This document shows positions 52,680 through 58,600 of a stretch of 64,000 nt of DNA, piece after piece. The notes under the pieces were generated by a model, which saw only the letters and a program-made list of their open reading frames with translations, had not been told where the DNA came from and searched no databases. The stretch comes from Chrysomallon squamiferum (Eukaryota; Animalia; Mollusca): positions 27,590,001 through 27,654,000 of the forward strand of contig CM022671.1 of the NCBI GenBank assembly GCA_012295275.1, given 5' to 3'. Both the position numbers and the translations under genes were made by a program. Position 1 is the first letter of the stretch. Each line of letters begins with the position of its first letter.

Positions 52680-55600
52680 ATGGTTAATAAGATGATCGAT
52701 ATGAATGGCGATCTTAAAAGTCTTACTGTAGTTCAATTAAAACAGATTTTAAAGAAGAAGAAACTTAGTACAAAAGGGCGTAAGGCCGATTTGGTAAGCC
52801 TGGGATGGTGAAAGTCATTCACTTTGAAGGCATGTGCATCTTTTCTTCTTCCTACTTTATTTTTTTTCCATCCAAACCTTTATCTTTGATCCAAGTATTT
52901 GCATGATTTTCTAAAAATAAAATGACTGAAATGTGGTAATAGTTATTTATAAAGCCTTATAAACTAATAAAGTTTCATAAAAATTTTAATCGGTTGATAT
53001 ATTATATATAAAATTATAATGATATATAATAAAACTAACATAACTTATAAACATAAATTTCATAAATATTGTGTTCACTCTTGTAACTTATTACTTCATT
53101 ATCTGTAATCTTCTATAACATCACTTTATAACATCGTTTTAATTCAGAAGATTCTGAAACAAATACAATAGTTCTATATCTAAAAACAAAATAGGTAAGC
53201 TTCATTCTATAAAGTTAAACCTTATTGGTATGTTCAAAGTTTGTCCAAAAATAGCCAAGTAATATTAATAAATATAGTTAACTTCAGCAAAGTCTGAGAT
53301 GTTCCTGGATATAAGTATTTCACTAACATCACTGATAAATCCATTTTTGAGTTGAAAAACAAATGATATTTTCAGAGGCTCTATTAATAGTTTTATCTTG
53401 CAATGGGCAAGATGATGTAAAACTAAATTAAATAGTAGTCTTGTTATATGGACATCACAGCAACATTATTAGAAAAGGCAGTGTCAAATAAATTGTTGCT
53501 ATATTTTTGTATAATTCTACATAAATTGAAAGCCATATAAAAAGACAAATAATCCTTCATCCCATTGTAATAAACATTTATTAAATCTCACTTTGGATTT
53601 GGTAACAGATTTCTGCTGTTTGTGGTATATCTTACATTTCACATTATGTTGATCGTGGCACTATATATTGTTGATACTGTCCAGGAAAATGGTTCAACTT
53701 CAGTATTGTTTTGACATTTTCTCACATACAGATGGTCTTTATTAACATATAAATATGATTTATTATTATTAAAATATTAGTATTAAATTCTGGGGGTTTT
53801 TTTCTTTCCTTTTTTAAATTATTATTATTAAGGTATTTTGTTTTACTAACATTCAGAATTTATCTTTACTATCTATCATTTAGCTCTTTGCAGAATTACT
53901 TTATTCATAAAAATTTCAAAAGACACTGTTCTTTTTCTTCATTCCACTTTAAATTTGTTGCATATTTACATTTAATTAATAATTTGGTTCTGTTTATTTC
54001 CATTAGACAGCACTTACACGTAAAGAAAGTCTATCAAAGTCTATCAAACAGCTGTTGACTCACAGACAAATTTAAATTTATAGACCGACACAGATAAATA
54101 AATGATATACTACCCACATTGTTCATTATATGTAGTTATTGTGAAATTTTACTGTTGTGTCTAATAAAATAAATATATAAATAAAATGAGTAATGTAAAT
54201 TGTTTTAAAGCCACTGGCTGATTATTTGAGTGACAGTTGGAGTTGCCACTCAGTTTCTGAGATTTCGTTTTAACTCTGTTTTTTTTTAAAAATAATTTTT
54301 TAATTAGTTGCATCTGCATATTAAATAAAAGAATGTGGCTAATGTAGCAAATAGCAGAGTAACTGTACAGAGTGAAATGGACACAGAATAAGTTAATAAG
54401 TAGATTTTTGGGCATATGGTATTATGTTACACCTAGTTTTATATTCTGAATCATTCTCCTCAAAAACAAAAAACAAAACAAATATAAAAATAAATATTAA
54501 TAAATTAATAAATAAAAAAAAGGTTTAAGAAAATCAACAACTTTAATATAAAGTTTATCAAATAAAAAAAAAAATGTAATAAATAACACAGAACAAAAAA
54601 AAAAAAAAAAAAAATATATGATGTTAAATGCCAGAAAAAAAAGGTTCACAAAATGAAAATAAATTTAATATAAAGCTTATCATGGAAAATAATAAATATA
54701 ATAAAACAATAGCTAAATCCTGGAAATGTATAATTTTATGTATTATGCTATATAAATCAGTGGCAATTAATTGTTAACATTTCTGTTGTATCAGATGATA
54801 TTGTAGATGACTACAATTATTGATTTTACTAACAAATAATTATCTTTTTTTTTTTTTTTTATATTTTATATTATTAACTTTTTTTTACATAATTATACAG
54901 TAGCAAATCCATAAAATAATTATAATTATTTGGCTCCTAATATGTTATTTTTATTATTAATAATTAAATCAATATCTCATTCCCTGTATTTTCAATTTAG
55001 CAATGCTGAAACAACAAACTGATAGGTAAAACATCTAATAATTGAGCGATTATAAGAATATTTTCTATATTTTACATACATTAAGTGATTAACATTCAGA
55101 GGATAACAGTAACTCATGTTTATTTCTGGGGAAATTAAAAGTCAAAACCATATTCAGGAATAGCTGGAACGTATACTAGGTAAATCAGATTTTTGTTTGA
55201 TCACATATCTCTTTCATTTAATAACAGTAACAATGACTAAATATGATTATGAACAAAAGTCAGGTATCAAAGTGTCTCTTTGCTTAATTGATTTATCTGT
55301 TTGGTAATCTTAACTGGTTTAAAATGAAAAAAAAAAAATAATAATAAATAAAAATAAAAAAAAATGTATGTATGTATGTATGTATGTATGTATGTATATA
55401 TGTATGTATGTATGTATTATGACATACAAAACCAAAAAAAGTGAAAATGTTTCTTAGTTTTCATTTTTGATGTACTATATATATATTCATGAAATGCAGA
55501 TTAAACCTGCAGGCAGTTGAAGAACAAACAAACAGACATTCTCTGTGTGTCATCAACTTAATTTAGTTTTCATCATGCCACATATTAGGTGATAACACAG

Positions 55601-58600
55601 GTACAAATGCTGTTTGACCTTTGATCATCAACTTGTTTATACCTCACACTGATTCAGCCTTACTGATTTAAATAAGCTTTTAAAAATCACAGTTTTGTTG
55701 CTGGTGACTGTCTTTTTGTTATCTGTGGAATAAAATAGTATTGTTGGCCAGAGTTTACTATCACGTAAGTTTTATACAATACTTTGACAGTTATAACATT
55801 ACAGTCCTTAAGAAATTTTTGTTACTGTTTTAATATTATAGTTACATATCTGAATAGAGGTTATAACAGAAATGTTTTAATGCAAATATAAAAGTCTAGT
55901 TATAATTTGATACTTAAATATATAATAATGTAAAATTTTGGTGAAATAATTAAAAACAAAACCAAAAAACATCGAAATAATTTTTTAATTAATTTACTCA
56001 AACTCCATTGACAGCATGTTGCATTAAACTTAATCTGTCATCTTAATATTGCATACAAGCAACAAAAAAAAAAAAACCCATATAATTTCATAGTCAGAAA
56101 CATTAATCATTTACTGACTGTTCCTTTTTTTTGTGTGTTAAATAATTTGCTTAAATGTTGAACACAACTGAAAGTCAAAACAGTGTTAAAAATGAATTTC
56201 TAATCTCTAAAGTTTAAATGTTAATGAATTTTTGCATTGTTTAGTACTGCATGGATGCAGCAGTTGTATTAAAGTAATGATTACCCAACAAATGCCTTTG
56301 GGGAAAATAATGACCTTTGAGTTCAGTTGCCTGGAGGTTTATTCCCTGTTTCATGCAGGCATAAAATGCTTCAAAGGCCAGGAGTGACATAGATTTAGTG
56401 GATTTTTTTTATTGATCATACAGCAAGATGATAAGTATTTAATTAATGTTCATTTATACATGTGTGACATCAAGCTGACTTTTTTTATGTTCAGTGAACA
56501 GCTGGACATAATAATGTTAACAAAGGGAACAACAGAAATGGAATTAGTCAGGATTTGTTCATTAACATTTGTTGTGTAGGTATATTTTTCTATTCATTAT
56601 TGTTAAATTAAAACATAACTTTCTTCTATAAATAAAAAATAAAGTTTATTTATATTTTAACTGTTTGAAAAGTAGCTAATTTGTGAATACTTGGATGTGT
56701 GTTTGAGTGTGCCTTTGTTTGAAAACAGTTTGAGACTGACATTTTATTCATTAAATAGTTTTTTGATGAACATGTGTTTCTATTCATGTTTTTACAGGAA
56801 TAAGACTAAGATTCTTATACAATAAATAATTAAAAGGTAAAATCGGTTGATGATACATCTGTCGTTGAACTATGATATAAATTCAGATTTCATTATACAT
56901 TTATAAGATTAATTTATTGGGTGGGGTCAAGGTTTGTTTTGAAGTAACCCCAGTGTTAGATTTTGTTGATCACAGAATGTGACATTGTTCATCATTACTG
57001 TAAGTATTTTCAAACAGTCCTTAAGAAAACTATTTCAAATTGCTTATATGTTTATACTTTCATATCTCTGTCTCTGTAATTAATTAAAAATCATAAGTTA
57101 ATTATATCTACAGTTTTGTTTTTAAATTAATATATGAATACATATTACTGCTGACTTTACTGAAGTGTGATAAATTGTGAACATTTTCTTTTTGGCAAAC
57201 TTTCTGAATTAATCAGTATTTTTGCCTCACTGACTTTTAATTATTTAATTATTCGTGAAATTTATTAACTTGAAGTTATGTTATTATAGTTGCACCCCTC
57301 TTTTTTTCTTATTGATATAGGAAACCACTGTACGAAACTGAATTTGGTTTGACCTCATGATTGAGCATTTTTAATTCTATTGAAAAATATAACAAATTAA
57401 TCTATTTATGATTTATAGTGCTTGGTATTATAACATGCATGTATATTGTTTGTTTAAACCTTTCACAGTGTGGATTTTATTTGTAAATATTTATTATTAT
57501 TATTATTATTATTATTATTAATTTTCTTCTTTTTTTTTCTTTCTTTTTAACATGACAAAACATACTCATATTAGTAATAAGAATCCAGTTACATTTTATT
57601 ACTACAGTGAATGTAGTATATTACAAATTATACATTTCCACCACCACACAAATCAAAATATACCACTGTTTATATTTCCTTGGTGTCATAATAGCAAATA
57701 ATAAAAATATTATATATGGCAGAGTAAGTACACTAGCATGAATCTGATTAACTGTTAAATTTGTTAAACAGTTACTTTTTTTAAATTCTTTTTGGAGTTT
57801 AAAGATTTACCTTTTACATGTTTTGTTAATACTGCATTTTTGGTGCATGGTCTGGGGTTTTGCATTAATCTTTGTCCTCGTAAAATTTAAGTAATTTTCC
57901 AGTCCTGTTATTTTAACATTTAGATCATAATATGTTTGCTGCCTTATAATGATTCATACAAATGTACTTATATGATTCTAAATGAAAGTTTATTTGATAT
58001 ATTTTTAGAGAATTATTTACCTGGAACATGATTAGTTGTATGTGTGTGATTTAAAAAAAAAAAAAAATCTTAACGAAGTATTTTATTACATAATTAACAT
58101 TTTAACAAATCAGGTGCATTTGTCATTTTCCCTAGTTGTCATAGATTTTTTTAATACTACTAAATTATTAATAGTGATTGATAATAATATTTTAAAAATA
58201 AATTTTTAATTTTTTTTAATTTTCATAATGAACTGAATTTAAAGATTTCTGAAATTAGCAGTAAGAAACTCAATATGGTTGTAATTTTATTACATTATAC
58301 TCGTGTAAACACTGACATTTTTTTTTAAATTTAATTTTTTAGATATTTTTAAAAATCTTACTGAAAACAGTTGATTAATTTTCTTCAATGTATTATGGTA
58401 TCTTTCTTTACTTTTGAAAACAGGGATTTCTTTTATAAGACACTGATGTTGTCACATTTGTATTCTATAGATTTCTCGAGTTCTACACACAACCAGTGAT
58501 ATGGAAACAAAGGATAACTTACGGCAAAGAAAACCAGAAACTACCAACGGCAATGTTCCTGAAATGATACTCCCGCAACAGATCACCAAGGATATGAAAA

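What the first reader, a model, noticed from the sequence alone, without database searches (positions are those of the whole stretch)
52680..58530. SAP-motif exon splices in frame onto VMP1 (predicted SAP-VMP1)
Seen: ATG 52680 opens a 38-codon exon, [38 protein letters not shown]|gtaagc. The phase-0 acceptor at 58471 continues [10 protein letters not shown] into the VMP1 ATG at 58501 with no stop. Established: L.V.QLK..LK...LSTKG.KADLI.R is the SAP (SAF-A/B, Acinus, PIAS) nucleic-acid-binding motif, and here its last helix is completed by the downstream exon, which argues for a real junction. VMP1 is an ER DedA-family scramblase/autophagy factor that I do not know to carry a SAP motif. Inference: an ER or nuclear-envelope scramblase isoform that could tether chromatin or RNA, loosely analogous to LEM-domain proteins.
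Basis: partly seen in the sequence, partly recalled or inferred. Interest (0 to 1): 0.8.

Follow-up and report, generated by a model that had tools for sequence, protein, structure and literature searches.

The report
Switchable SAP domain on VMP1
The first exon of this snail's VMP1 lipid-scrambling membrane protein gene encodes a small SAP domain, predicted to bind DNA or RNA, that also heads VMP1 in corals, insects and early fungi and would likely anchor it at the nuclear envelope, but the RNA assembled from this species uses a second splice site that cuts the domain off, so the domain is likely switched on and off by splicing.

Summary
The SAP exon is real (Pfam PF02037, 36.9 bits, cut-off 23.9), and so is the acceptor at 58471. 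SAP+VMP1 is not peculiar to this window. It occurs in 19 of 120 listed homologues and in coral, flatworm, insect, ichthyosporean and early-fungal proteins, but in 0 of 18 vertebrate rows. Long and short isoform pairs occur in 12 species.

RNA contigs from 2 of 4 runs splice 52829→58471 through a GC donor. This adds 36 nt with an in-frame TGA, leaving a 43-aa SAP uORF ahead of short VMP1. The assembly is also 1 nt short at the end of exon 2, probably an error.

Best reading: an old, optional nucleic-acid-binding N-terminal module on an ER scramblase, likely a chromatin tether at the inner nuclear membrane. Function is untested. The architecture is machine-annotated in databases; my paper searches found no description. 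This scan reported it before on another genome (e1-7594114); the listing I saw does not mention the GC-donor switch.

The parts
52615..52679 (+). 5' untranslated part of exon 1 covered by RNA contigs (true start unknown); holds a start-stop ATG-TAA at 52643
52680..52793 (+). SAP-coding part of exon 1 (38 codons); GT donor at 52794 would give the 459-aa SAP-VMP1 fusion (junction predicted, not seen in RNA here)
   Evidence: homologues
52794..52829 (+). 36-nt extension of exon 1 with in-frame TGA (52809-52811); GC donor at 52830 used in RNA contigs of runs X1 and X2
52680..52811 (+). 43-aa SAP uORF in the GC-spliced mRNA (Pfam SAP 39.6 bits; HeH/LEM 24.9, below its 28.9 cut-off)
58471..58717 (+). 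Exon 2: end of SAP helix 2 (ISRVL), short-form ATG at 58501, linker and first membrane segment; 1 nt short near 58705-58716 with TAA at 58714-58716 as assembled
59086..59176 (+). VMP1 exon 3
   Evidence: AG/GT ends, open frame, homology
59563..59673 (+). VMP1 exon 4
60180..60259 (+). VMP1 exon 5
60676..60757 (+). VMP1 exon 6
61225..61365 (+). VMP1 exon 7 (query of the homologue search)
61673..61753 (+). VMP1 exon 8
62128..62244 (+). VMP1 exon 9
62526..62587 (+). VMP1 exon 10
62810..62903 (+). VMP1 exon 11
63589..63747 (+). VMP1 exon 12, coding part, stop ending at 63747

Best explanation
This is a gastropod VMP1 gene whose first exon encodes a SAP domain and has two splice donors: a GT donor predicted to give a 459-aa SAP-VMP1 protein that would likely bind chromatin and be held at the inner nuclear membrane, and a GC donor, seen in RNA contigs, that stops the SAP frame and likely yields the ordinary 411-aa ER form from ATG 58501. 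Steps: (1) shown: SAP motif, both donor sequences, use of the GC donor and of the acceptor. (2) Shown in relatives and inferred here: the fused protein is made (about 0.8). (3) Inferred: the N-terminus faces the cytosol/nucleoplasm, because there is no hydrophobic segment in the first 90 residues and the net charge is +8. A disordered linker of about 55 residues would let SAP reach off the membrane. (4) Inferred, about 0.5: SAP binds DNA without sequence specificity, so the small long form diffuses through the pore membrane and is retained on chromatin. This would give the nuclear envelope its own scramblase, while the short form serves bulk ER, autophagosome and lipid-droplet sites. (5) Inferred: the GC-spliced mRNA makes short VMP1 only by leaky scanning or re-initiation past six upstream AUGs, so donor choice would set both isoform and dose.
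For: Pfam SAP on the exon. The read-through residues ISRVL match the Haliotis ISRLL; an [IVL]-x-R type continuation follows the junction in most of the 37 homologues printed. The predicted long form has the same length as Haliotis (459 aa), 72% identical. PF02037 is on 19 of 120 listed homologues. 15 of 145 new 50%-representatives hit a SAP profile built from homologues, and 12 of those 15 pass Pfam's cut-off. Named ones include Porites, Macrostomum, Diaphorina, Cloeon, Oryctes, Chromosphaera, Sphaerothecum, Geranomyces and Sorochytrium. In 17 SAP long/short pairs from 12 species, 11 short forms start at a Met downstream of SAP and 6 diverge exactly at L|[IV]. The AlphaFold model of the Haliotis protein has a confident helix-loop-helix at residues 11-40 (pLDDT about 86) and a low-confidence linker at 47-70. 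Its best PDB matches are SAP domains (ERI1/3'hExo Z 7.0, rmsd 2.3 over 48; Hcc-1 6.4; Tho1 6.0). SAP regions are net basic in 36 of 37 homologues and +8 here. GC-donor contigs were assembled independently in two samples. HeH-type inner-nuclear-membrane proteins that bind DNA directly give a precedent (PMC4810098, passages).
Against: The GT junction is absent from the listed contigs. Depth in the bin over the exon equals the single GC contig's depth (40.3 and 19.6), so no second piece was laid there; contigs drop rare forms, and only one study was seen. The closest named relative, Gigantopelta, has only a 417-aa model without SAP. No SAP was found in the octopod, oyster, Capitella, Sycon or vertebrate proteins checked, so VMP1 can do without it. 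As assembled, exon 2 has a frameshift and stop, unchecked against reads. Structural matches are modest (Foldseek E > 0.3; VIA Z at most 7.0) and include RNA binders and MANF. Nothing here tests localisation or ligand. VMP1 knockdown did not explain nuclear-membrane PS asymmetry in human cells (PMC11329639, passages), though the vertebrate VMP1 proteins checked here lack SAP.
Confidence: 0.45

Rival explanations
1. The fusion is real, but SAP works on the cytosolic ER face as an RNA binder. It would dock VMP1 to ER-bound ribosomes or mRNPs, or present RNA/DNA cargo at autophagosome formation sites.
For: The top structural match is the SAP of ERI1/3'hExo bound to an RNA stem-loop; the Rho RNA-binding domain, Hcc-1 and Tho1 follow. 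Tho1 is the only PDB sequence hit (E 0.0035). VMP1 acts at ER-autophagosome contacts with ATG2 (PMC8386813, passages).
Against: Z differences among SAP matches are within about 1 and cannot separate RNA from DNA binders. DNA-binding SAPs (S/MAR-binding 1h1j, FAN1, Ku70) also match.
Confidence: 0.22
2. In this snail lineage the fusion is little used or lost. Exon 1 now acts mainly as a 43-codon uORF (or free SAP micro-peptide) that damps translation of short VMP1.
For: Only the GC-spliced, stop-containing form is seen in RNA contigs. Gigantopelta has only a short model. The uORF alone keeps most of the SAP score (53 against 57 bits; Pfam 39.6 bits).
Against: The GT donor is intact and matches the consensus as well as the gene's other donors (6 of 9). 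ISRVL downstream of the acceptor is conserved in frame, where the GC mRNA has only untranslated sequence. Only one study was seen, as contigs.
Confidence: 0.15
3. The SAP-like helix pair is a protein-binding module, as LEM binds BAF and as the MANF SAP-like domain binds BiP (MANF-BiP recalled). It would recruit or gate a partner of VMP1.
For: Weak HeH/LEM Pfam hit (19.6 bits, below its 28.9 cut-off). MANF and SAP30 are among the structural matches (Z 3.5-4.4).
Against: SAP scores far above HeH/LEM. The basic surface is kept across animals and fungi. PMC4810098 (passages) suggests unicellular eukaryotes lack BAF, yet they carry SAP-VMP1.
Confidence: 0.13
4. Chance in-frame neighbour or annotation artefact: the SAP exon belongs to nothing, or the local VMP1 copy is a pseudogene.
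For: Frameshift and stop at the end of exon 2; GT junction not seen.
Against: Exon 1 is joined to VMP1 exon 2 in two RNA contigs whose lengths fit the whole 12-exon mRNA (1480 nt to the stop plus about 190-210 nt of 3' UTR). Exons 3-12 are open. The same architecture occurs across opisthokonts.
Confidence: 0.05

Closest known systems
VMP1 (TMEM49, EPG-3, TANGO5) of the DedA/VTT superfamily
   Same: Clear orthologue: 62.5% identical to axolotl VMP1, 72-80% to gastropod VMP1. VMP1 is an ER glycerolipid scramblase (PMC8386813, passages) and is also reported as a Ca2+ release channel (PMC13262637, passages).
   Different: The studied vertebrate protein has no N-terminal SAP: 0 of 18 named vertebrate rows (local profile). 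Here exon 1 codes one and has two donors.
Machine-annotated SAP-bearing VMP1 isoforms, e.g. Haliotis rufescens XP_046382080.1 (X1) with short X2 XP_046382081.1; Porites lutea XP_073257303.1; Geranomyces KAJ3161827.1
   Same: Same order SAP-linker-VMP1, same length as abalone (459 aa), same exon boundary inside SAP helix 2, same downstream Met for a short form.
   Different: These are automatic gene models with no functional study that I could find. How their short forms arise could not be seen. Here the short form is traced to a GC donor with an in-frame stop.
HeH/LEM inner nuclear membrane proteins (Src1/Heh1, Man1, LEM2, emerin, LAP2)
   Same: A small N-terminal helix-loop-helix of the SAP/HeH/LEM type, a flexible linker and membrane segments; the HeH form binds DNA directly (PMC4810098, passages).
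   Different: Those have one or two membrane segments and an MSC domain. This has a polytopic DedA scramblase core, scores as SAP and not as HeH/LEM, and is optional by splicing.
Soluble SAP-domain proteins (Tho1/Hcc-1, ERI1, E1B-AP5, PIAS, Ku70, FAN1)
   Same: Sequence motif and predicted fold.
   Different: The matched entries are isolated SAP domains or soluble nucleic-acid factors; none among the matches is attached to a lipid scramblase.

Membership tests
SAP domain (PF02037) | Profile score above the curated cut-off | tested here: met
   36.9 bits against 23.9 for exon 1 alone; 39.6 for the 43-aa uORF
SAP domain (PF02037) | Two-helix helix-extension-helix fold | tested here: met
   Tested on the Haliotis orthologue, not the window protein: helices 13-22 and 31-48, pLDDT about 86; best matches are SAP domains, Z 7.0, rmsd 2.3 over 48; Z is modest
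SAP domain (PF02037) | Binds DNA or RNA | not testable with these tools
   Only net basic charge (+8) was computed
VMP1 family (DedA/VTT) | Full-length homology to VMP1 | tested here: met
   Exon 7 hits named VMP1 proteins at E 1.9e-18; 62-80% identity over 395-455 aligned residues
VMP1 family (DedA/VTT) | VTT domain PF09335 above cut-off | tested here: inconclusive
   Window protein not scanned whole; orthologues, vertebrate ones included, score 23-34 bits, under the 33.9 cut-off
VMP1 family (DedA/VTT) | Intact reading frame | tested here: inconclusive
   1-nt deficit and TAA at the end of exon 2 as assembled; exons 3-12 open; not checked against reads
VMP1 family (DedA/VTT) | ER-resident scramblase activity | not testable with these tools
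   Known for mammalian VMP1 (PMC8386813, passages)
LEM/HeH inner nuclear membrane proteins | LEM/HeH domain above cut-off | tested here: not met
   PF12949 19.6 bits (exon) and 24.9 bits (uORF) against 28.9
LEM/HeH inner nuclear membrane proteins | One or two membrane segments with an MSC domain | tested here: not met
   Polytopic VMP1 core; no MSC hit in Pfam scans of orthologues
LEM/HeH inner nuclear membrane proteins | Inner nuclear membrane residence | not testable with these tools
   Needs microscopy

The most novel reading that the evidence does not exclude
The common ancestor of animals and fungi had a chromatin-tethered lipid scramblase, SAP-VMP1, serving the inner nuclear membrane. 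Invertebrates switch it against the ER form by exon-1 choice, here by a GT/GC donor pair that turns the SAP exon into a uORF. Vertebrates, where all VMP1 work has been done, lost it.
Probability: 0.3. Interest if true: 0.8.

Novelty: new variant of a known kind. Interest (0 to 1): 0.55.

Why it matters
VMP1 is a core autophagy and ER-lipid factor that has been studied almost only in its SAP-less form. Which proteins balance lipids across the leaflets of the nuclear membranes is open. PMC11329639 reports failed attempts to find them (passages), and PMC13061601 only speculates that ER scramblases shape nuclear-envelope curvature (passages). A natural pair of isoforms that differ only by a 48-residue SAP leader makes the question directly testable: long against short, in the same cell. 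The conservation from chytrids to snails argues for function. The GT/GC donor pair gives a concrete switch to measure.

Tried and rejected
No whole genome is held for this window, so paralogues and a second VMP1 copy could not be looked for. Homologue searches with exon 2 alone and with the Lineus N-terminus found nothing useful (0 hits; self only). The ESM Atlas gave no usable hit for Haliotis residues 1-200. An exact 20-mer scan of metagenome contigs gave two chance matches, L001 and L002 (GC 44%, no VMP1 by tblastn); these were rejected. Runs X3 and X4 had no contig on exon 1; this is a hole, not evidence. Short pieces laid inside intron 1 (T-rich 20-34-nt matches, a joint 53831→56060 with a 21-letter side) look like repeats. 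A few 160-330-nt low-depth intron pieces may be pre-mRNA or DNA; none was shown joined to 58471, so no alternative first exon was found in 52000-58170. Contig mis-assembly was rejected as the cause of the GC joint: the two sides share only AG, and two samples give the same joint. RNA was laid only on 52000-58170, so the exon-2 frameshift is unchecked. An in-phase but very weak donor ATT|GTTTTA at 58710 could also keep the frame; I rate it less likely than a one-base assembly loss, because Gigantopelta has the three extra residues. The tree (FastTree, 126 of 127 sequences, midpoint root, mostly unlabelled, ichthyosporeans not grouping with animals) only shows that SAP-bearing proteins lie in the animal, ichthyosporean and fungal groups. 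It does not prove one origin or absence outside opisthokonts. No complex prediction was run, because a nucleic-acid partner cannot be scored. Sequence look-up in earlier findings gave nothing.
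Full report
1. Observation. The window is AT-rich animal DNA. The closest named protein is from the gastropod Gigantopelta aegis (80% identical). Exon 1 alone is a SAP domain by Pfam (E 2.7e-9, 36.9 bits, cut-off 23.9, profile 1-28 of 37). HeH/LEM is weaker and under its cut-off. Eleven further exons, 58471-63747, encode VMP1.

2. First, exon 2 as assembled is 247 nt and meets TAA at 58714-58716, one base out of phase with exon 3; exons 3-12 are open. Gigantopelta reads INLLGLRLW across this point, so one base is probably missing from a T-rich patch. 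I infer an assembly error (about 0.8); it was not checked against reads. Second, the RNA. Five runs hold the gene; four RNA runs from one study were laid on 52000-58170. In X1 and X2 one contig (1673 and 1688 nt) follows the genome from 52615/52618 to 52829, with one other letter and no gap, and then continues with the letters of 58471 onward. The intron begins GC (AAG|GCATGT). The extra 36 nt hold TGA at 52809-52811, so this mRNA has a 43-aa SAP uORF and then a 411-aa VMP1 from ATG 58501, behind six upstream AUGs. The contig lengths fit the full mRNA (1480 nt to the stop). No piece showing the GT junction was laid. X3 and X4 did not cover the exon. Contigs show presence, not absence, so the GT form may be a minor or tissue-limited form.

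3. Is the fusion real elsewhere? Yes. A search with exon 7 gave 1204 hits. Of the 120 listed, 19 carry PF02037 with the VMP1 families: gastropods, bivalves, Owenia, Lingula, Lineus and two unnamed. None of the 18 named vertebrate rows does, though several are fragments. Cluster look-ups showed RefSeq long and short pairs. Of 20 pairs compared, 17 had a SAP long form (12 species); 11 short forms start at a Met after SAP, and 6 diverge exactly at L|[IV], the position of this window's intron. The other 3 pairs (oyster, octopus) have no SAP. A profile search of 1.84 billion representatives gave 145 new proteins in the top 150. Fifteen hit a SAP profile built from 19 homologues, and 12 of these pass Pfam's cut-off. 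Named ones are Porites, Macrostomum, Diaphorina, Cloeon, Oryctes, Chromosphaera, Sphaerothecum, Geranomyces and Sorochytrium; Lunasporangiospora and Globomyces are below the cut-off. In a core tree they fall in the animal, ichthyosporean and fungal groups. One old origin with many losses is the simplest reading, but it is not tested, and most non-SAP rows are unnamed. In the window, ISRVL after the acceptor matches Haliotis ISRLL, and the predicted long form has the same 459-aa length. This suggests the fused frame is still under selection here.

4. Anatomy and mechanism. The Haliotis model (19-sequence alignment, mean pLDDT 59, pTM 0.40) is confident for the SAP helices and low in the linker; much of the DedA core is poor. 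Its best structural matches are SAP domains (Foldseek E > 0.3; VIA Z up to 7.0). The window protein has no hydrophobic segment in its first 90 residues and a net charge of +8 there, so the SAP is inferred to face the cytosol or nucleoplasm. I commit to DNA binding and retention at the inner nuclear membrane, by analogy with HeH proteins (PMC4810098, passages). Diffusion-retention targeting is recalled knowledge. RNA binding on the ER face is the main rival, since ERI1 and Tho1 are the top matches. A uORF-only role in this lineage and a protein-binding role are the others. No step of function was tested.

5. Literature. Searches of the open library: 'VMP1'+'SAP domain' 0 papers; 'vacuole membrane protein 1'+'SAP'+'mollusc' 0; 'Haliotis'+'VMP1' 0. 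Orthologue names with 'SAP domain' gave 18 papers holding two of six terms; none of the 17 listed holds 'SAP domain'. 'SAP domain' with scramblase terms gave 2 unrelated listings, and 'VMP1'+'uORF' gave 2 listings, not opened. Searches supplied background listings. Passages read: bioRxiv 2020.12.18.423352 (3 'sap' hits, the one shown is 'sapiens'), PMC11011780 and PMC11294092 (0 'sap'), PMC12749514 (3 hits, the two shown are 'sapiens'), PMC8386813, PMC13061601, PMC13262637, PMC11329639 and PMC4810098. No paper was read whole and no supplements were opened; domain tables in supplements or subscription journals could mention the architecture. The Haliotis discus hannai entry WAB53330.1 (SAP 45.9 bits) may have such a paper behind it.

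6. Earlier scan note. e1-7594114 reported the same architecture on another genome. I tested its range claim independently: corals, molluscs, worms and arthropods are confirmed, and I add ichthyosporeans and early fungi. The listing I saw does not mention a second donor.

7. Verdict. This is a real, ancient and apparently unstudied variant of VMP1, already present as automatic annotation. In this species the observed splice removes the SAP through a GC donor, and the fusion is inferred from conservation. New variant of a known kind; interest 0.55.

Noticed in passing
window 49234-51345 (-): Intronless TRIM-NHL-like ORF (RING strong, B-box and NHL weak), head to head with VMP1; about 1.27 kb separates its ATG from the first base of the VMP1 contigs, so the promoter may be bidirectional.
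   Followed up: partly
window 52594-52613: Three tandem TTCCGG/CCGGTT units just before the 5' end of the RNA contigs; they resemble ETS-type promoter sites (motif recalled).
   Followed up: no
window 58705-58716: One-base deficit with in-frame TAA at the end of VMP1 exon 2; probably an assembly error.
   Followed up: partly
window about 33800-44760 (+): Multi-exon SETD1-like histone methyltransferase gene, recognised by eye from ORFs; name recalled, not scanned.
   Followed up: no
window about 11480-17410 (-): Exons of a beta-glucuronidase-like gene, recognised by eye from ORFs; name recalled.
   Followed up: no
protein P0259 (unnamed JGI, 765 aa): VMP1 with at least two tandem SAP domains (Pfam 80 bits, 2 stretches), placed near the fungal group in the tree.
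   Followed up: partly
protein P0048 (Biomphalaria, 562 aa): SAP-VMP1 model that also carries PF00092; possibly a mis-joined gene model.
   Followed up: no
window 49099-49155: Two adjacent copies of a unit of about 27 nt just past the end of the TRIM-like ORF.
   Followed up: no
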